From Escherichia phage JEP8, in sequence record MT764208.1: a DNA stretch of 64,000 nucleotides; one strand, 5' to 3'. The notes under the pieces were generated by a model. It ran no database searches. It had not been told where the DNA came from and saw only the letters and a program-made list of their open reading frames with translations. A program made the translations under genes and the position numbers. Below are positions 1,570 to 26,072 of the stretch, one piece after another; the stretch's first letter is position 1, and every line of letters begins with the position of its first letter.

Positions 1570-1609
1570 TGTTTGATTCTCCTAAGTGGTATCTCGTTTC
1601 GATGTGTGT

Positions 1610-1638
1610 ATTATGCTATAGGCGTGATCTGGTGTCAA
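1610..1638 (-). promoter_or_regulatory. early promoter TTGACA-N17-CATAAT
   Basis: drives 1300..1569. Confidence 0.55.
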
Positions 1639-18942: not shown

Positions 18943-20175
18943 TTATACTGCCATTTGAGCGGTGATCGCTGGATGGCTTTGATAGTTGTGAATTTTAAAG
19001 TCTTTCGGAGTCTTTGTCAATACCTCATCTAAAGATTTAAATTCCGGCAACTCGATTGTTGGTTTATCAAACGGAACACGGCTTAACTGTTCCATAACTT
19101 GATCAAAATGGTTTTTGTAAATGTGAGTATCTCCACCAGAGAAAATCAGTTCTCCTACCTCAAGGTCACACATTTTAGCTATGATGTGAGTTAACAGCGC
19201 ATAGCTGGCGACGTTAAAGGGCAAGCCCAAAAAGCTGTCTACGCTTCGCTGAAACCACATACAAGACAGTTTACCCTCATTGACATAGAATTGCACGAAC
19301 GGATGACATACACCTAATACAGCATTATGTGTTCCTTGTACGTTCCATGAGTCAATGATGATACGTCGATCCGTTGGATTGTTTTTAATTTGTTCAATCA
19401 CGTTTTGTAACTGGTCTTCCCAAATCTTCGGGCGATAGACATATTCTTCATCGTCTTTAGTGCTCGATGTGTCTACGTCCATACTAGCAAAGATCGTGGT
19501 ATCGGGTGCTAAAATATCCCCACCCAGATAATCACTATCAAGCAGATAACCGAAATAACCATCATCTACCCATTCCTGGAATCCCCACAAGCAATATGCA
19601 TCATTAACAAAATTAGATTGAGTCTTCCAGTGATCTGCTACTAAGAATTGATTATATTCAGAATCAAACTCTTCATAACGCATACCACGCCAGATAGCAC
19701 ATAAACGGTCTTCTGTGTCGTTGGTTGGCGTAAAGTCTTCTACCCACGGGTGTTTAAATGTATGTGTATATTTGCTCTTAACGCGCTTAATTTTGATTTC
19801 ACCGTGTGGATGAATCGGTTTGCGTCGCCATGCCATACCATACATATTGCCAACATTATAGCCGTTGAATCGTAGCGGATTCTTTTCTTTCATATCAAGA
19901 CAGTTGCCGCGCCAAATGTCGAAGGCTTCTTCGTCAAACTGACCGCGTGTAATTTCCTGTAATCGACGGCGGTCAAGTGATCCCTCCATAAACCATAGCA
20001 ACTCGCCAATTACAGAGGCTGTAGCCATCTTTTTAGTGGTCAGTAATGGGAAACCCTTGCTTAAATCAATTCGCATCTCTGCGCCGAATTTAGAGAGCGT
20101 ACCTACCCCCGTGCGGTCTTCACGAGGCCAGCCATTATCAAGAACATCACGCAATAGTTTCAAATATTCTTTCAT
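18943..20175 (-). CDS. td: thymidylate synthase with ~110-aa internal insertion
   Basis: N-terminal (DRTGTGT, TTKK), catalytic (CH.F.QF), and C-terminal (LGLPFNIASYALL, HPAITAQMAV) TS blocks present; 410 aa versus ~286 for T4 Td. Confidence 0.88.
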   Translation of the reverse strand: MKEYLKLLRDVLDNGWPREDRTGVGTLSKFGAEMRIDLSKGFPLLTTKKMATASVIGELLWFMEGSLDRRRLQEITRGQFDEEAFDIWRGNCLDMKEKNPLRFNGYNVGNMYGMAWRRKPIHPHGEIKIKRVKSKYTHTFKHPWVEDFTPTNDTEDRLCAIWRGMRYEEFDSEYNQFLVADHWKTQSNFVNDAYCLWGFQEWVDDGYFGYLLDSDYLGGDILAPDTTIFASMDVDTSSTKDDEEYVYRPKIWEDQLQNVIEQIKNNPTDRRIIIDSWNVQGTHNAVLGVCHPFVQFYVNEGKLSCMWFQRSVDSFLGLPFNVASYALLTHIIAKMCDLEVGELIFSGGDTHIYKNHFDQVMEQLSRVPFDKPTIELPEFKSLDEVLTKTPKDFKIHNYQSHPAITAQMAV

Positions 20176-20416
20176 CCCACATCACCTTTTTCTTATTGAT
20201 TGCTTTCTTACGCAGTTTTGCTACTGTCTCGTCAATATTGATAAAGACAACGCCCGGATCGAATACAGTAACAGGTCTTGAAATGTCGCTATTTTCCTGT
20301 ACTGGAAGCCATGACGCTTGAGCTTCATCATAGAGATATTGTAAGCCGTAATAATCTACGGCTACTGCGTAGTTTTCACTGGTAGCCGTCCATAATTGAA
20401 TAATACTGATTTTCAT
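20147..20416 (-). CDS. hypothetical protein (89 aa after trimming)
   Basis: trimmed to ATG 20416, coupled (TAATG) to the upstream micro-ORF. Confidence 0.4.
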   Translation of the reverse strand: MKISIIQLWTATSENYAVAVDYYGLQYLYDEAQASWLPVQENSDISRPVTVFDPGVVFINIDETVAKLRKKAINKKKVMWDERIFETIA

Positions 20417-20508
20417 TATTGTTCCCGTCCACAATGTAAACACCGACTACCAGCAAACATCAAAGATTCACCACAATGTTTGCACTCATAATCTGTCAGA
20501 ATTTTCAT
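20416..20508 (-). CDS. 30-aa zinc-ribbon micro-protein (MKILTDYECKHCGESLMFAGSRCLHCGREQ)
   Basis: hand-translated; two C-x2-C pairs; directly after frd stop. Confidence 0.35.
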   Translation of the reverse strand: MKILTDYECKHCGESLMFAGSRCLHCGREQ

Positions 20509-20509
20509 G

Positions 20510-21091
20510 TTACGCCTTCTTACGTTCTAAAATTTGTTCGCTGACCAGGTAATCATCAAGGAAGTAATTATGTTCTTCTTTTGTTGCAAAGTTAAAATAT
20601 AATTCCTGAATCATTTCCTTAGAGATTCCAACATCATGTTCAAATGGATCGTTGATCCCTGAACGTTGAACATACGTTAACACAATACGGTCCGCAAAGT
20701 CAACCGCTTTTTCAATCAGGGAAGGTCCACCGATAACACTTACCAAACCTTGCAATTTCTCTATGACTTCTAATAATTCCTTCAATCCACCATCATTAGT
20801 AATCGCGGTATACACATCAGGTTGTTCGCCGTTTTTTGCTTTCGGTGCTGGCTTACTGGTATCGGTACTAACAACCACATTCACACGACCTTCCAGTGCT
20901 TTAGGGAGACTTTCAAAGGTATTACGTCCCATTACAACCGCCGCAAGATCAACATCTCCCATAGTGCGCATTTTAAAGTTTTCCATGTCCTTTTTGATTG
21001 GACGACCCCACGGTAAACCGCCTTTAAAACCAAACGCCCAATTTTCATCTGACATTTTAGTGTCACCAATCGCAAATACACATTGAATCAT
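20510..21091 (-). CDS. frd: dihydrofolate reductase
   Basis: 193 aa; DHFR pattern (GLPW, GR.T..S, VIGG); adjacent to td as in T4. Confidence 0.85.
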   Translation of the reverse strand: MIQCVFAIGDTKMSDENWAFGFKGGLPWGRPIKKDMENFKMRTMGDVDLAAVVMGRNTFESLPKALEGRVNVVVSTDTSKPAPKAKNGEQPDVYTAITNDGGLKELLEVIEKLQGLVSVIGGPSLIEKAVDFADRIVLTYVQRSGINDPFEHDVGISKEMIQELYFNFATKEEHNYFLDDYLVSEQILERKKA

Positions 21092-21106
21092 AATATAAAT
21101 CTCCCA

Positions 21107-21436
21107 TCAAATCAGTTTGAAATAGTTTTCGTTTACATTTTCTTCTGTGATTGCTGTCTTAAATTCTTGACCGTTATCCGGTGTGATGAAATAACGGTCA
21201 GAATAATCACGAAAACGTTTTAAGTGAGATACCCCAACATTAACACCATTTTCCCAAAAACGAAAGGTAATCATTTTTGGTTCATATCGATAGTCGCTGG
21301 TTAACACAGTACCATCCCCGCGACGGGCTTCATAAACCGTAATACATTCACGATTGGCGGCTTTTAGGCATTCTTCAATAGTGCCGCACGAGATAATACT
21401 TACTTTTTCATCTACGATTTGTTCTACAGTCCACAT
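21107..21436 (-). CDS. hypothetical protein (109 aa after trimming)
   Basis: start trimmed to ATG 21436 downstream of promoter 21468-21495. Confidence 0.5.
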   Translation of the reverse strand: MWTVEQIVDEKVSIISCGTIEECLKAANRECITVYEARRGDGTVLTSDYRYEPKMITFRFWENGVNVGVSHLKRFRDYSDRYFITPDNGQEFKTAITEENVNENYFKLI

Positions 21437-21467
21437 AATATAATCCTCTCTTTGTTTCGATATGTGC

Positions 21468-21495
21468 ATTATACACTATTGCGTTACGCTGTCAA
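21468..21495 (-). promoter_or_regulatory. early promoter TTGACA-N16-TATAAT
   Basis: drives 21107..21436. Confidence 0.55.
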
Positions 21496-23112
21496 CTCTT
21501 TTTCAAAAGTTTTTACGATATACATGATAGTGCTCAATTCAGACGGCGCTACTGTTTCTGTGTAGCCATCCGGCATATCTTCTTTTGAGATATAGGAAGT
21601 TTTACCTTTCATCGCTTCCTTGATCTTGTTCTCTAAGTCTAAGATCTTTTGACCGTCTTGTAAAGTCAATTCATAAAAGATCTCGTGGTTGAATTTGGAA
21701 AGTCGAGATTGACCTCCAATTCGTTCTTTTGTTGTTCTATTGGTTATTCCAAATTTAACGCCAACGAATATTTTTTCTTTTATTAGTTTTTGAATATACA
21801 ATACTCCTTTTTTTAAGGTATTATATCCATATTGTGCGCATTTAGGACAACGAGTTCCTTTCTGAAAGTTTGTTATTGTCGGTGTAAATTCATGGCCTTC
21901 ACTACACACCAAATTTAACTTTGTAGACACACCGTTCCATTCTCCAATAAATCCATTAAATATGATATTTTCTTTTTCGAAAATTGGTTTAAGTCTTTCA
22001 AGATATTCTTCTTTTGATAATGCATAATTATTTGCACATTTAGGACAACGAGTTCCATTCTGAAAACTGGATATGATAGGAGTGAAATTGTGGCCTTCAC
22101 AACACACCAAATCCAATTTTGTTACGTTACCTTTCCACTCACCAACGATTCCATTACAGGTTATATTTTCTTTAATAAATATCGGTGCTAATTTTTCGAA
22201 ATATTCTTCCTTTGGAATCAATTTACGTTCTCTTAATTTAAGAGCTTTACATTTCGGACAGCGGCGACCTTGTTGAAAAACTGCTATGCTCGGGGTGTAA
22301 TTGTGTTTTTCATTACACACCAAATTCAGCCTAGTTCTGCTACCTTTCCACTCACCAACGATTCCATTACAGGTTATATTTTCTTCAACGAAGATTGGTT
22401 TTAATCTTTTAAAATATTCTTCTTTTGATATTTTTCTACTGTTTCTCCAGTTGATAATACCGCAGGTCGAACACCTATTACCGGATTGAAAACCGTTTAC
22501 AGTCGGTGTAAATTTATGGCCTTCACTACACAATAAATTCATTTTTGTTGTGCTTCCGTTCCATTCTCCAATAAATCCATTAAATACGATATTTTCTTTT
22601 TCGAAAATTGGTTTAAGTCTTTCAAGATATTCTTCTTTTGATAGTAATTTCAATTCTCTTAATTTAAGAGCTTTACATTTAGGACAACGACTTCCGACCT
22701 GAAATGCTGTTATCGTCGGAGTAAATTCATGATCCTCACAACATGTTAAGTTTAGTTTTGTGTGCACGCCTTTCCATTCTCCGACGAATCCATTAAACTT
22801 TATATTTTCCTCAATAAAGATTGGTTTAAGTTTTTTATAATATTCTTCTTTTGATAGGGCATAATTATTTGCGCATCTAGAGCATCGTTTACCTTTTTGA
22901 AAATCTGATATTCTTGGTGTAAATTCATGTCCTTCACAACACACCAAACCCAATTTTGTTACGTTACCTTTCCACTCACCAACAAATCCATTAAATACGA
23001 TATTTTCTTTTTCGAAAATTGGTTTAAGTCTTTCGTAATATTCCAATGGGCTAATCGAGTTATAATTTTTCTTAACCCATTCAATCTCATGCGCCTTACG
23101 TACCAACATCAT
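21484..23112 (-). CDS. six-repeat Cys/His-rich protein with C-terminal T5orf172/GIY-YIG-like domain
   Basis: six ~70-aa tandem units (EEY.E.LKPIF..ENI.FNG..GEW.G...KLNL.C.EGH.FTP.I..FQ.G.RC..C) then GVLYIQKL...VGVKFGITNRTTKERI; start trimmed to ATG 23112. Confidence 0.6.
   Translation of the reverse strand: MMLVRKAHEIEWVKKNYNSISPLEYYERLKPIFEKENIVFNGFVGEWKGNVTKLGLVCCEGHEFTPRISDFQKGKRCSRCANNYALSKEEYYKKLKPIFIEENIKFNGFVGEWKGVHTKLNLTCCEDHEFTPTITAFQVGSRCPKCKALKLRELKLLSKEEYLERLKPIFEKENIVFNGFIGEWNGSTTKMNLLCSEGHKFTPTVNGFQSGNRCSTCGIINWRNSRKISKEEYFKRLKPIFVEENITCNGIVGEWKGSRTRLNLVCNEKHNYTPSIAVFQQGRRCPKCKALKLRERKLIPKEEYFEKLAPIFIKENITCNGIVGEWKGNVTKLDLVCCEGHNFTPIISSFQNGTRCPKCANNYALSKEEYLERLKPIFEKENIIFNGFIGEWNGVSTKLNLVCSEGHEFTPTITNFQKGTRCPKCAQYGYNTLKKGVLYIQKLIKEKIFVGVKFGITNRTTKERIGGQSRLSKFNHEIFYELTLQDGQKILDLENKIKEAMKGKTSYISKEDMPDGYTETVAPSELSTIMYIVKTFEKELTA
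21800..23055 (-). repeat. six tandem ~210-bp coding repeats inside the 542-aa gene
   Basis: repeat units evident in protein and DNA (recurring tttccactcaccaacgattccattacaggttatattttc-type segments). Confidence 0.7.
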
Positions 23113-23139
23113 TTTATCCTCCGTTGTTTCGATGTGTGC

Positions 23140-23167
23140 ATTATACATTACATCATCAGCATGTCAA
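23140..23167 (-). promoter_or_regulatory. early promoter TTGACA-N16-TATAAT
   Basis: drives the 542-aa repeat-protein gene. Confidence 0.55.
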
Positions 23168-23191
23168 CACCTTTTTCATAAAATTTTAGGC

Positions 23192-23220
23192 AATAAAAAA
23201 GCCTCCCCGAAGGGAGGCTT
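23192..23220 (-). terminator. intrinsic terminator after gene 32
   Basis: hairpin AGCCTCCC-TTCG-GGGAGGCT followed by T6ATT. Confidence 0.7.
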
Positions 23221-23229
23221 TAAAATTCA

Positions 23230-24198
23230 TTACATCGCTAACAGAGAATCCAGGTCATCCAGATCAGAAGCGGAGGAAGTACCGCCACCCAGGTCCAGAG
23301 ATGCCATCAGATCATCAGCGGAAGAATCTAACGCCGTGCTAGCTGCGTTAATACCAACTACAGTGCTAGCTGCGGTAGTACCAGCGTCGAATGCATTCAT
23401 CTGTGCGTCAAAATCATCAAGCTGGCTGTTAATCGCTGCCGCAGCACTGGAAGCCGCAGAACCAGCTACCATAGAAACGCCCATAGTTTTCTTAAATTTG
23501 GTTTCCAGTTCATCGAACGGTTTAAACTGGCTAGGCGCTACAATCTCACTCAGATCAACCATGTTTTCCATCAGATATTTCTGATATGCTTCGTCTTCAA
23601 TTTTCGGAAGCTGTGATTGCTGCATGAAACGAGAATCATCATAGTTCTGGTGTTTATCAACCTTCTTAGCTTTCAGGAGGAAGTTAGCACCGGAGAACAC
23701 ACAAGTTACATCTACCGGAACTTCGCCCATGTCGGTATTCACGTTCACCATTGCAACGATCTTATCATAAATTTTCTGACCGAAGCGGAATTTGAATACC
23801 TTACCTTCATTTTCTGGTGCTTGAGGATCTTTCAGTACCAGAATATTTGCGTAGTAAGACGCTTTACGCTTAATCAGTTGCCATTCTGTTTTATCGGTAT
23901 TGTACAGATCTTTTTCGTTAATATATTTGCACACAGGGCAAGAATCAAAATCACCGTGGGTGCTGGAGCAGTTTTCCCAATACCATTTGCCATTAACTTT
24001 GAAGGAATGGTTTACCAGTTTCACAATCGGCAGACCGTCTTCTGTCTTAGACGGCAGGAAGCGAATCAGGGCTTCACCGTTACCTGCTGCATCAGTCTTA
24101 ATCTTCCACTCTTTCGGATCTTCTTTGGAGAAACCGTTGCCACCTTTCAGTGCGGCCAGTTGAGCTTGCAGTTTGGAAGAATCTTGGCGTTTAAACAT
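23230..24198 (-). CDS. 32: single-stranded DNA-binding protein (T4 gp32 homolog)
   Basis: MFKRQ...[11 protein letters not shown]...LIRFLPSK...[36 protein letters not shown] matches T4 gp32; track start GTG trimmed to ATG 24198. Confidence 0.93.
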
Positions 24199-24234
24199 AT
24201 TCACTATTCCTTCTTTTGATTAATTTACTAGACT

Positions 24235-24262
24235 ATTATACAGATTTAAATTTACTTGTCAA
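24235..24262 (-). promoter_or_regulatory. promoter TTGACA-N16-TATAAT upstream of gene 32
   Basis: overlaps the gene 59 stop. Confidence 0.55.
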
Positions 24263-24939
24263 CTATTTGTTTCGGCTTTTAATTGAGATATTTCTTTACA
24301 CTCTTTAACTACTTTAACAAATAATGCTCTTGCTTTTGCGGCGTCAATAACAAGTAGTTTCTTGTACGCCTTCATTTTAACACTATAAGTTTGCCAAATC
24401 AAGTCTTTGGCTACCTTGTCGTGTGCGTCGATTATATTTAGAAAGCTATCTAACAACATAAACGACTCAAACGATATAATCCGATTTTGCAGTAGTTTAA
24501 AGATACCGCTAGTTTCGGTTGCGGGATTGTATGTAATTAGCTCTTTAAGAGTAACCCCGCGTTTCTCTGAGAAGTATACCAGACTTTTAATGTCATCGTC
24601 AAATCGTGTTGCTGCATCGGTTATCTTTCCTATGTATTCCATATAAAAGCCGTATGCGTCAACATCAGTGATTTCACCTACCCATGCATCGGTATTAGCT
24701 ACCAGATTGCTTAGGAATAGGAAGTATAATTCTCTTAGATTGTACTTTTCCGCTAATTTTGCGAAATAATACTTATCTCTGCGTTTATTGAATGCGGTAT
24801 CAGACAACCGCATCCTCCAATTGTATTTTACGCAATCATAACGCCCGTTCATGTGAGCTTTCATCATGCAATATAACATATACACAGATTTAGCATTAAT
24901 TCGCATATCTGGATCTGGAGGAAGACGGTTTCTGATCAT
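24259..24939 (-). CDS. 59: helicase loader (T4 gp59 homolog)
   Basis: GKSVYMLY..MK.HMNGRYD..KYNW.MR.SD.A..KRRDKYYF and LSNLVAN.DAW.G match T4 gp59. Confidence 0.9.
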   Translation of the reverse strand: MIRNRLPPDPDMRINAKSVYMLYCMMKAHMNGRYDCVKYNWRMRLSDTAFNKRRDKYYFAKLAEKYNLRELYFLFLSNLVANTDAWVGEITDVDAYGFYMEYIGKITDAATRFDDDIKSLVYFSEKRGVTLKELITYNPATETSGIFKLLQNRIISFESFMLLDSFLNIIDAHDKVAKDLIWQTYSVKMKAYKKLLVIDAAKARALFVKVVKECKEISQLKAETNS

Positions 24940-25475: not shown

Positions 25476-26072
25476 TTAACCCTCTTTCGTCATTAATTGA
25501 AAACCACGTTCAGCTTTTGAAATTTCGCTAGGACTTAAATCGTCACCAACATATTCTAGCATCATTTCTCGGATAATGTCAAGTGCTTTTTCATCACCTG
25601 ATTTTAACTCGAACTCAAGTTCATAGTGAGCATCTCCCATTACTTCGCCGACTTTGCAATAATAGAAAGTGTCTTTGCACATTTCCACTATAGCACCCTC
25701 AAGGTCAAGTGTCAATGACTTGCGGTATGTCATTACTTGCAACAAAGGAACTATAAGGTCGGAGTTTACGCCTAGACTATCAACATAGTGATAGAAATCA
25801 TCCATTGTTGAAAAAGTAATTTCTTCTCGGTTGAATAGTCCAGATTCACCATCACCTATTTTGACCATGATCAATGATCTATTAACGTCAAGTCGAGCAT
25901 AAATTCCTTTTCGACGCAGTGCATGATCTTCGGTATCATAATAAAATTCGTGTTTTAGAGTGTTAGCATGATCTACGATATTGTACCCGTCATACATTGC
26001 TACCCACAAATCACGGATTGTTTCTACACCATCCTGTGAATGAGCATAGTATTTTAATTCAAGTTCTTTCAT
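25476..26072 (-). CDS. CYTH-like (triphosphate tunnel metalloenzyme) domain protein
   Basis: N-terminal E-L-E-L-K-Y (ExExK), central basic LRRKGIYARL, C-terminal YELEFELK (ExExE); ~198 aa; absent at this position in T4. Confidence 0.5.
   Translation of the reverse strand: MKELELKYYAHSQDGVETIRDLWVAMYDGYNIVDHANTLKHEFYYDTEDHALRRKGIYARLDVNRSLIMVKIGDGESGLFNREEITFSTMDDFYHYVDSLGVNSDLIVPLLQVMTYRKSLTLDLEGAIVEMCKDTFYYCKVGEVMGDAHYELEFELKSGDEKALDIIREMMLEYVGDDLSPSEISKAERGFQLMTKEG

What the first reader, a model, noticed from the sequence alone, without database searches (positions are those of the whole stretch)
21484..23112. 542-aa protein built from six tandem Cys/His-rich repeats fused to a T5orf172/GIY-YIG-like domain, inserted between frd and gene 32
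Six ~70-aa units of near-identical pattern (EEY-E-LKPIF-ENI-FNG-GEW-G-TK-NL-C-EGH-FTP-I-FQ-G-RC-C), each with a C...H...C-x2-C set, are followed by a C-terminal domain (GVLYIQKLIKEKIFVGVKFGITNRTTKERIGG) resembling the T5orf172 / GIY-YIG-like fold. As far as I recall T4 has no comparable gene here. A multi-zinc-ribbon array fused to a nuclease-like domain suggests a nucleic-acid-targeting accessory or anti-defence function. The DNA-level repeats also make the locus recombination-prone.
Basis: partly seen in the sequence, partly recalled or inferred. Interest (0 to 1): 0.6.

Follow-up and report, generated by a model that had tools for sequence, protein, structure and literature searches.

The report
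Zinc-finger-array homing endonuclease beside gene 32
This is an ordinary selfish "homing endonuclease" gene of an RB49-like coliphage, with six zinc-finger DNA-binding repeats fused to a T5orf172/GIY-YIG-type nuclease domain; the architecture is already published and near-identical copies are already annotated in GenBank.

Summary
A 542-aa ORF (21484-23112, minus strand) encodes six tandem 66-71-aa units. Each unit has an invariant C-x3-H-x14-C-x2-C set. A 112-aa C-terminal domain follows.

Pfam calls the repeats "CapR homology domain" (6 hits, E 9e-32). PHROG 681 "endonuclease" matches at E 1e-111.

The window is a Krischvirus (RB49-like). The gene sits in an AT-rich cassette between gene 32 and a small ORF upstream of frd, bracketed by two copies of a consensus early promoter.

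JSE has an empty site with a single hybrid promoter. RB49, Phi1, GEC-3S and W115 carry alleles with the same promoter and nuclease domain. Most also share the N-terminal leader. Their finger arrays differ and hold about 3-6 fingers.

Best reading: a free-standing T5orf172-family homing endonuclease with a modular, swappable DNA-binding array, as described by Barth, Dunham and Seed (2023). No evidence supports an anti-defence role. The cleavage target is undetermined. Low novelty.

The parts
21484..23112 (-). CDS of the putative homing endonuclease, 542 aa, stop TAA at 21486-21484
   Evidence: ORF. Start codon chosen from RBS and promoter anatomy and from the annotation of the 99%-identical Delraymugoa gene. 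phrog_681 'endonuclease' E 1.2e-111.
23056..23112 (-). N-terminal leader MMLVRKAHEIEWVKKNYNS
   Evidence: The same leader, MLVR(Q/K)AHEIEW..., precedes unrelated finger arrays in GEC-3S, W115 and P0010/12/14/15/20-23.
22858..23055 (-). Zinc-finger (CapR homology) repeat 1, 66 aa
22645..22857 (-). Repeat 2, 71 aa
22432..22644 (-). Repeat 3, 71 aa
22219..22431 (-). Repeat 4, 71 aa
22021..22218 (-). Repeat 5, 66 aa
21823..22020 (-). Repeat 6, 66 aa
21487..21822 (-). C-terminal T5orf172/MUG113-type (GIY-YIG clan) nuclease domain. Invariant family residues are Y439, K453, G455, R464, G487, E494, G516, E519 and T520 (542-aa numbering).
23140..23167 (-). Consensus sigma70-type (early) promoter driving the endonuclease: TTGACA, 16 nt, TATAAT
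   Evidence: 12/12 match; sequence; annotated as a promoter in GEC-3S.
23198..23221 (-). Intrinsic terminator after gene 32. Together with the promoter it forms a PeSL-like unit.
   Evidence: 10-bp stem, 6 GC pairs, T-run. PeSL concept from PMC2839356.
21468..21495 (-). Second copy of the consensus promoter. Its -35 box lies inside the last codons of the endonuclease CDS. It drives the downstream 109-aa ORF.
   Evidence: 12/12 match; sequence; same arrangement in RB49, W115, GEC-3S, Phi1, Skers and MIZ4.
23124..23145 (-). Upstream copy of the direct repeat TATAATGCACACATCGAAACAA (-10 box plus 5' leader)
   Evidence: 0 matches expected by chance; JSE empty-site comparison.
21452..21473 (-). Downstream copy of the direct repeat (1 mismatch)
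21107..21436 (-). Flanking conserved 109-aa ORF (phrog_16287, RB49p239 homologue) between the cassette and frd
23230..24204 (-). Flanking gene 32 (ssDNA-binding protein)
   Evidence: Pfam gp32 E 1e-51; annotation in relatives.

Best explanation
The gene is a free-standing homing endonuclease of the T5orf172 family, carried in a small AT-rich cassette in the gene 32 / frd intergenic region of a Krischvirus (RB49-like phage).

Inferred mechanism. The gene is transcribed early from a consensus sigma70 promoter. The six CapR-type zinc fingers act as beads on a string and together read a long DNA site. The C-terminal GIY-YIG-fold domain then cuts DNA. The likely substrate is a co-infecting relative that lacks this allele, cut somewhere in the neighbouring conserved region. 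Recombinational repair using the endonuclease-carrying genome as template copies the cassette and flanking markers into the cut genome.

The cassette duplicates the resident promoter, so the downstream gene stays expressed. The two promoter copies also allow the cassette to be lost or exchanged by homologous recombination. The finger array is the swappable specificity module.

What is shown: the domain identities, the cassette anatomy, the presence/absence polymorphism, and the swapping of arrays between alleles.

What is inferred: zinc binding, DNA binding, cleavage, the target, and actual homing.
For: (1) Domains. CapR homology domain x6 above Pfam threshold (109.5 bits against a cut-off of 24.2). 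phrog_681 'endonuclease' E 1e-111.

(3) Sporadic distribution. JSE, PHB13 and others lack the gene. RB49, Phi1, GEC-3S, Skers and W115 carry different alleles. MIZ4 carries a short 182-aa allele.

(4) Composition. GC is 0.31-0.355 across the gene against about 0.38-0.48 in the flanks.

(5) Cassette anatomy. Two 12/12 promoters and a 22-nt direct repeat bracket the gene. The JSE empty site carries one hybrid promoter.

(6) Array swapping. Homology between alleles covers the promoter, RBS, start region and nuclease domain, but not the finger array.

(7) Literature. T5orf172 HEGs with repeated CapR/DUF723/DUF4379 fingers, including a six-repeat example, and recombination between such repeats are described in PMC10448857. 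The conserved cysteines of CapR are required for DNA binding (PMC8096241). T4 segG sits next to gene 32 and cuts it, and promoters embedded in HEG coding regions are documented (PMC2988022).
Against: No cleavage site or co-conversion tract could be identified. SNP blocks in both flanks are mosaic and do not track presence of the gene.

Expression from an early promoter differs from T4 endonuclease-specific promoters, which are middle or late (PMC2988022).

Barth et al. themselves note that homing cannot be inferred from sequence alone.

Comparison with the closest allele gives only 9 synonymous and 7 non-synonymous codon changes, too few to show purifying selection.
Confidence: 0.75

Rival explanations
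1. Domesticated derivative of a homing endonuclease that now serves the phage. It could be a sequence-specific nuclease aimed at a satellite, a competing phage or host DNA (like ICP1 Odn), or a DNA-binding regulator (like PLE CapR). It would not be an actively homing element.
For: HEG-derived proteins with these domains have been co-opted in the ICP1/PLE system (PMC8263062 listed; PMC8096241; PMC10448857). The gene has a strong early promoter, which would suit a function needed right after infection. Many different arrays on one nuclease domain at one locus could reflect an arms race with variable targets.
Against: Close relatives do without the gene (JSE and others), so it is dispensable. No PADLOC or defence-related match. 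The putative catalytic residues are retained, so a pure repressor role is unlikely. The DNA-binding module is CapR-type, not the RepA_N type found in the origin-directed nucleases.
Confidence: 0.15
2. Inactive, decaying homing-endonuclease remnant kept only because it carries the promoter for the downstream gene.
For: The promoter of the downstream ORF is embedded in its 3' end. PMC2988022 argues that this arrangement favours retention. MIZ4 carries a much shorter 182-aa allele that may be degenerate. The window's nuclease domain scores below Pfam thresholds.
Against: The ORF is intact over 542 aa. All 24 metal ligands of the six fingers are present. All nine family-invariant residues of the nuclease domain are present. 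The gene is 99% identical to the Delraymugoa allele with no frameshift.
Confidence: 0.07
3. Anti-defence protein: a zinc-ribbon array that binds or cleaves a host defence nucleic acid or component.
For: Only the generic facts that it is an early-expressed accessory gene and binds nucleic acid by inference.
Against: No similarity to any defence or counter-defence family tested. The family, architecture and genomic behaviour are those of homing endonucleases.
Confidence: 0.03

Closest known systems
T5orf172-family putative homing endonucleases with repeated CapR/DUF723/DUF4379 zinc fingers (ICP1 gp165/gp174, Vibrio phage Helene six-repeat HEG; Barth, Dunham & Seed 2023, PMC10448857)
   Same: The same two-part architecture: an N-terminal array of CapR-type zinc fingers and a C-terminal T5orf172 domain. 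Up to six degenerate tandem repeats. Repeat-mediated deletion or duplication and domain swapping. Location next to essential genes. Helene-group Vibrio phages are direct tblastn hits of the C-terminal domain.
   Different: The host phage lineage is Straboviridae/Krischvirus, which is not mentioned in that paper or its held supplements. The ligand pattern here is C-x3-H...C-x2-C rather than CxxC...CxC. Here a whole allelic series of arrays sits at a single locus.
PLE CapR (Netter et al. 2021, PMC8096241)
   Same: Homologous zinc-finger DNA-binding domain, the Pfam family named after it.
   Different: CapR is a satellite-encoded repressor without a nuclease domain. The window protein has six fingers plus an apparently intact nuclease domain.
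T4 SegG and other seg free-standing GIY-YIG endonucleases (PMC2988022)
   Same: A free-standing nuclease gene of the GIY-YIG superfamily, in an intergenic site adjacent to gene 32, in the same orientation as its neighbours, with a promoter for the next gene embedded in its coding region.
   Different: It lies on the other side of gene 32. It belongs to a different branch of the clan (T5orf172/MUG113, not Pfam GIY-YIG). The nuclease is C-terminal rather than N-terminal. The DNA-binding module is different. It uses an early rather than a middle or late promoter.
RB49 ORF240 (NP_891811), Phi1 ORF240, GEC-3S BN201_0241, Delraymugoa WWD11673 ('endonuclease') and T5 AAX12067 ('RB49ORF238c-like')
   Same: The Krischvirus genes are alleles at the identical locus and share the promoter and nuclease domain (81-97% identity in the C-terminal domain). 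Delraymugoa is 99% identical over the whole gene. The T5 protein shares two CapR fingers and the same C-terminal domain (35% identity).
   Different: RB49, Phi1 and GEC-3S carry unrelated finger arrays with about 4-6 fingers. None of these genes has been characterised experimentally, as far as the searched literature shows.
PeSL (promoter-early stem-loop) cassettes of RB49/Phi1 (Arbiol et al. 2010, PMC2839356)
   Same: A terminator stem-loop plus a consensus sigma70 promoter flanks a dispensable gene. The empty site is consistent with recombination between promoter copies.
   Different: The downstream promoter copy has no stem-loop of its own and overlaps the endonuclease stop codon. This locus is not discussed in that paper.

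Membership tests
T5orf172 / MUG113 domain (Pfam PF10544 / PF13455, GIY-YIG clan) | Match to the Pfam profile | tested here: inconclusive
   The window's own domain gets no hit even at E<=10. Of 48 diverse homologues (31-56% identical), 27 hit MUG113 (best E 1.5e-8) and 17 hit T5orf172 (best E 1.7e-8). The JSE paralogue hits T5orf172 weakly at E 0.0068. Membership rests on transitive homology.
T5orf172 / MUG113 domain (Pfam PF10544 / PF13455, GIY-YIG clan) | GIY-YIG-type fold: three-stranded sheet with flanking helices | tested here: met
T5orf172 / MUG113 domain (Pfam PF10544 / PF13455, GIY-YIG clan) | Conserved Tyr in strand 1, Arg in helix 1 and Glu in the later helix (catalytic core of GIY-YIG enzymes) | tested here: met
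   Y16, R41 and E71 of the domain (Y439, R464, E494) are invariant in 48 homologues and present in the window. Their equivalence to I-TevI Y6/R27/E75 is inferred from motif order and secondary structure, not from a residue-level superposition.
T5orf172 / MUG113 domain (Pfam PF10544 / PF13455, GIY-YIG clan) | Nuclease activity | not testable with these tools
   Needs biochemistry.
CapR homology domain (Pfam PF21817) / treble-clef zinc finger | Match to the Pfam profile above the gathering score | tested here: met
   109.5 bits against a cut-off of 24.2, six stretches. DUF4379 'treble clef' scores 53.4 bits against 24.5.
CapR homology domain (Pfam PF21817) / treble-clef zinc finger | Four conserved metal ligands per unit | tested here: met
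   C-x3-H-x14-C-x2-C is invariant in all six units. Across 49 related units the three Cys are invariant, while the second ligand varies in position and type. Actual zinc binding was not tested.
CapR homology domain (Pfam PF21817) / treble-clef zinc finger | Sequence-specific DNA binding | not testable with these tools
Free-standing homing endonuclease gene (functional class) | Intergenic position between conserved genes, with presence/absence among close relatives | tested here: met
   The gene lies between gene 32 and the frd-proximal ORF. It is absent in JSE and others, and variable alleles occur elsewhere.
Free-standing homing endonuclease gene (functional class) | Cleaves the endonuclease-less allele and is over-inherited with co-conversion of flanking markers | tested here: inconclusive
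   Flank polymorphism is mosaic but does not correlate with presence of the gene. No target was identified. Crosses and cleavage assays are needed.
PeSL cassette (Arbiol et al. 2010) | Consensus sigma70 promoter plus adjacent stem-loop terminator flanking a dispensable ORF, with variants explained by recombination between copies | tested here: met
   Upstream there is a terminator and a 12/12 promoter. Downstream there is a 12/12 promoter without its own stem-loop. A 22-nt direct repeat occurs on both sides. The JSE empty site has one hybrid copy, and MIZ2 has an unrelated ORF in the same frame of promoters.
Classical Seg / I-TevI-type GIY-YIG endonuclease (Pfam PF01541, N-terminal nuclease) | PF01541 match, N-terminal catalytic domain and C-terminal DNA-binding domain | tested here: not met
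   No PF01541 hit for the window protein. Domain order is reversed, with fingers N-terminal and nuclease C-terminal.
Known anti-phage defence or counter-defence protein families (PADLOC-DB) | Match to a defence-system profile | tested here: not met
   Only two weak matches with zero stretches passing on their own.

The most novel reading that the evidence does not exclude
The Krischvirus gene 32 / frd locus may be a natural specificity-cassette system. One conserved promoter, leader and GIY-YIG-fold nuclease domain is recombined with many alternative arrays of 2-6 CapR fingers. Each finger would read a few base pairs in a modular, code-like way, as TALE or C2H2 arrays do. Variable residues cluster in the zinc-knuckle half of the unit. 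Alleles would then diversify under frequency-dependent selection to cut competing phages during co-infection. If so, the fingers could be a new programmable DNA-recognition scaffold.
Probability: 0.12. Interest if true: 0.6.

Novelty: already known. Interest (0 to 1): 0.2.

Why it matters
It matters little as a discovery. The gene family, its repeated zinc-finger architecture and its recombination behaviour are published, and near-identical genes are deposited and annotated as endonuclease.

It has some value as a clean worked example. A single Krischvirus locus shows an empty site, a possibly degenerate short allele, and at least five intact alleles that share the promoter and nuclease domain but carry different finger arrays. 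That makes it a convenient natural system for two questions: how T5orf172 endonucleases choose targets, and whether CapR fingers recognise DNA modularly.

For annotation, it shows two things. The first-ATG ORF call (554 aa) runs into the promoter. The T5orf172 domain of this clade escapes Pfam.

Tried and rejected
(1) Direct Pfam and NCBIfam scans of the C-terminal 116 aa found no T5orf172 or GIY-YIG hit. This was resolved only through homologues and fold.

(2) phmmer and a profile search against PDB sequences found only spurious hits.

(4) The search for homologous proteins with the C-terminal domain returned only 8 close fragments. The exhaustive representative search was needed.

(5) The search for a homing target or co-conversion signature by binned SNP counts found mosaic blocks in both flanks among 10 Krischvirus loci. 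These lie in frd (20760-20880), the 109-aa ORF (21120-21420) and the gene 32 3' end. None correlates with presence of the endonuclease or with array type.

(7) The PADLOC scan for defence-related similarity found nothing real.

(8) A search for paralogues in the 64-kb window with profiles of both domains found only this gene.

(9) Synonymous and non-synonymous codon counts against Delraymugoa gave too few differences to interpret (9 synonymous, 7 non-synonymous).

(10) A search for RB49 or Krischvirus in the supplements of Barth et al. found nothing.

(11) A simple three-unit block duplication as the origin of six units from a W115-like three-unit array was considered and rejected. The unit identity matrix and linker pattern (ANNYA after units 1 and 5, KALKLRE.KL after units 2 and 4) do not fit a single duplication.

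Full report
**1. What is in the sequence**

The minus strand of 21484-23148 holds an ORF of 554 aa counted from the first ATG. That ATG is part of the -10 hexamer (TATAATG) of a perfect sigma70-type promoter: TTGACA, 16 nt, TATAAT, at 23167-23140. The next ATG, at 23112, follows a GGAGG box by 5 nt. It is also the start annotated in the closest public relative.

After a 19-aa leader come six tandem units of 66-71 aa. They are 57-79% identical to one another at the protein level and 64-82% at the DNA level. The invariant columns are EY, L.PIF, ENI, NG, GEW.G, T, L.C.E.H, TP, FQ.G.RC..C. Every unit therefore keeps a C-x3-H-x14-C-x2-C ligand set. Tandem Repeats Finder sees the array with periods of 198 and 213 nt. 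A 112-aa C-terminal domain follows the array.

**2. Domain identities**

Pfam assigns the repeats to the CapR homology domain (PF21817, E 9.1e-32, six stretches). They also match DUF4379, "probable treble clef zinc finger". PHROGs places the whole protein in phrog_681, "endonuclease", at E 1.2e-111.

The C-terminal domain alone gets no Pfam, NCBIfam or PDB-sequence match. An exhaustive phmmer search found 435 representatives at E<=1e-3. The domain sits at or near the C-terminus in most of them, behind N-terminal regions of very variable length.

I aligned 48 diverse copies of the domain (alignment A1). Scanned one by one, 27 hit MUG113, 17 hit T5orf172 (best E 1.7e-8) and 4 hit GIY-YIG. An AlphaFold2 model built on that alignment is very confident (pLDDT 96.4), with a beta-beta-alpha-beta-alpha core.

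The family-invariant residues are Y16, K30, G32, R41, G64, E71, G93, E96 and T97 of the domain. All are present in the window protein, as Y439, K453, G455, R464, G487, E494, G516, E519 and T520.

A model of a single finger unit is reasonably confident (pLDDT 85). It has no informative neighbour among solved structures.

**3. Genomic setting**

The window is a Krischvirus (RB49-like Straboviridae). It is 97.8% identical over 20400-24400 to phages Delraymugoa and Aragogtheria.

The gene order on the minus strand is:
- gene 59
- gene 32
- terminator (23221-23198)
- promoter 1 (23167-23140)
- endonuclease
- promoter 2 (21495-21468)
- a conserved 109-aa ORF (21107-21436, phrog_16287)
- frd
- td

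.

The -35 box of promoter 2 lies in the last codons of the endonuclease (gag TTG ACA gcg taa). Each promoter is followed by the same leader. The 22-mer TATAATGCACAYATCGAAACAA therefore occurs at 23145-23124 and at 21473-21452, where none is expected by chance.

GC content falls to 0.31-0.355 across the gene, against about 0.38-0.48 in the flanks.

**4. Comparative evidence**

Phage JSE has no gene at this site. It carries one hybrid promoter, with the -35 box and spacer of copy 1 and the RBS of copy 2, directly in front of the 109-aa ORF.

Other Krischviruses carry alleles of different length at the same place:

| Phage | Allele |
|---|---|
| RB49 | 485 aa |
| Phi1 | 460 aa |
| GEC-3S and Skers | 392 aa |
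| W115 | 338 aa |
| MIZ4 | short 182-aa allele next to about 380 nt of unannotated DNA |
| MIZ2 | an unrelated 109-aa ORF between the same two promoters |

.

Nucleotide homology between the window and these alleles runs from frd up into the nuclease domain. It stops at window positions 21768-21849 in the full-length alleles and at 21592 in MIZ4. It resumes at about 23083-23113, at the RBS and start region. What differs between alleles is exactly the finger array.

RB49 carries DUF723-like fingers. Phi1 and GEC-3S carry other CapR-like fingers. W115 carries three fingers of the window's type, 46-67% identical to the window's units. Among metagenomic representatives with at least 75% identical nuclease domains, about a dozen further arrays of roughly 1-6 fingers occur. 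One is a five-unit array of the window's type (P0010).

The window has only this one gene of the family. JSE has a paralogue elsewhere, between genes 2 and 3.

**5. Interpretation**

The features that point one way are:
- a dispensable, compositionally distinct nuclease gene
- an intergenic slot next to an essential conserved gene
- presence, absence or apparent truncation among close relatives
- the same orientation as its neighbours
- a replacement promoter supplied for the downstream gene

These are the hallmarks of a free-standing homing endonuclease as defined in T4. There, segG sits on the other side of gene 32 and cuts gene 32, and several seg/mob genes embed the promoters of their neighbours (PMC2988022).

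The specific architecture has been described by Barth, Dunham and Seed (PMC10448857). They report that 87% of 229 T5orf172 endonuclease genes carry CapR, DUF723 or DUF4379 fingers, often several. They give a six-repeat example in Vibrio phage Helene, and document recombination within and between arrays.

The DNA-binding role of the finger rests on PLE CapR, whose four conserved cysteines are required for binding (PMC8096241).

The terminator-plus-promoter units resemble the PeSL cassettes shown to mediate modular shuffling in RB49 and Phi1 (PMC2839356).

I therefore read the gene as a T5orf172-family homing endonuclease whose finger array is the exchangeable specificity module (confidence 0.75). 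Zinc binding, DNA binding, cleavage, the target site and actual homing are inferred, not shown.

**6. What remains open**

I could not find the target. SNPs in both flanks form mosaic blocks in frd (20760-20880), the 109-aa ORF (21120-21420) and the gene 32 3' end. They do not track presence of the gene or array type.

A domesticated role cannot be excluded from sequence. It could be anti-satellite or anti-competitor, like ICP1 Odn, or regulatory. I give this 0.15.

Decay to an inactive remnant is unlikely, because all 24 ligands and all invariant nuclease residues are intact (0.07).

One small difference from T4 is that the gene is driven by a consensus early promoter. T4 endonuclease-specific promoters are middle or late.

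**7. Novelty and score**

The kind is known and published. The Pfam family for the repeat exists. RefSeq and GenBank annotate the RB49, Phi1, GEC-3S, JSE and Delraymugoa homologues as "endonuclease". The Delraymugoa gene is 99% identical to this one. Krischviruses are not mentioned by Barth et al., so the allelic series at this locus may not have been written up, but it adds an example rather than a concept.

Verdict: already known, interest 0.2.

The most novel reading still open is that the fingers form a modular, code-like recognition system diversifying under inter-phage competition. I rate it at about 0.12 probability and about 0.6 interest if true.

Noticed in passing
window 18943-20175 (-): The thymidylate synthase (td) ORF is 410 aa. 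Pfam Thymidylat_synt matches in two stretches, and the second covers aa 254-410 against model positions 110-266. ThyA therefore carries an insertion of roughly 130 aa (about aa 125-253). RB49 and JSE td have similar lengths.
   Followed up: partly
window 23148 and 21469 (-): Mechanical ORF calling extends both the endonuclease and the downstream 109-aa ORF to an ATG that is part of the TATAATG -10 box of their own promoters. The real starts are 23112 and 21436.
   Followed up: yes
window 1594-1615 (-): A third, weaker copy (3 mismatches) of the promoter -10 plus leader repeat CATAATACACACATCGAAACGA. This suggests the same promoter/leader module is reused elsewhere in the genome.
   Followed up: no
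L009 3706-4302 and L010 3347-3943; window 24205-24258: Phages Skers and MIZ4 carry an HNH endonuclease gene between gene 32 and gene 59, the position of segG in T4. The window has only a short intergenic region with a 12/12 promoter there. Gene 32 is flanked by mobile nuclease slots on both sides in this genus.
   Followed up: partly
window 20760-20880 and 21120-21420: There are sharp mosaic blocks among Krischviruses. One is a frd segment with 22-24 differences per 60 nt against Delraymugoa, RB49, W115, GEC-3S, Skers and MIZ2, but 0-1 against JSE, Phi1 and MIZ4. The other is a divergent allele of the 109-aa ORF shared by JSE and Skers. The two blocks are independent of each other and of the endonuclease allele.
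   Followed up: partly
L011 1381-1710 (-): MIZ2 carries an unrelated 109-aa ORF of unknown function between the same two promoter copies where the endonuclease sits in the window. The slot therefore accepts different cargo.
   Followed up: no
window 25476-26072 (-): A 198-aa ORF downstream of dsbA has a CYTH domain (E 3.9e-7). Its RB49 homologue is noted as similar to ygiF.
   Followed up: no
L004 2039-2836 (phage T5 AAX12067): A T5 gene just upstream of pb2 encodes a 265-aa protein with two CapR fingers and the same C-terminal domain. Its 2005 annotation already names it 'RB49ORF238c-like'. Like the window protein, it gets no Pfam T5orf172 hit.
   Followed up: partly
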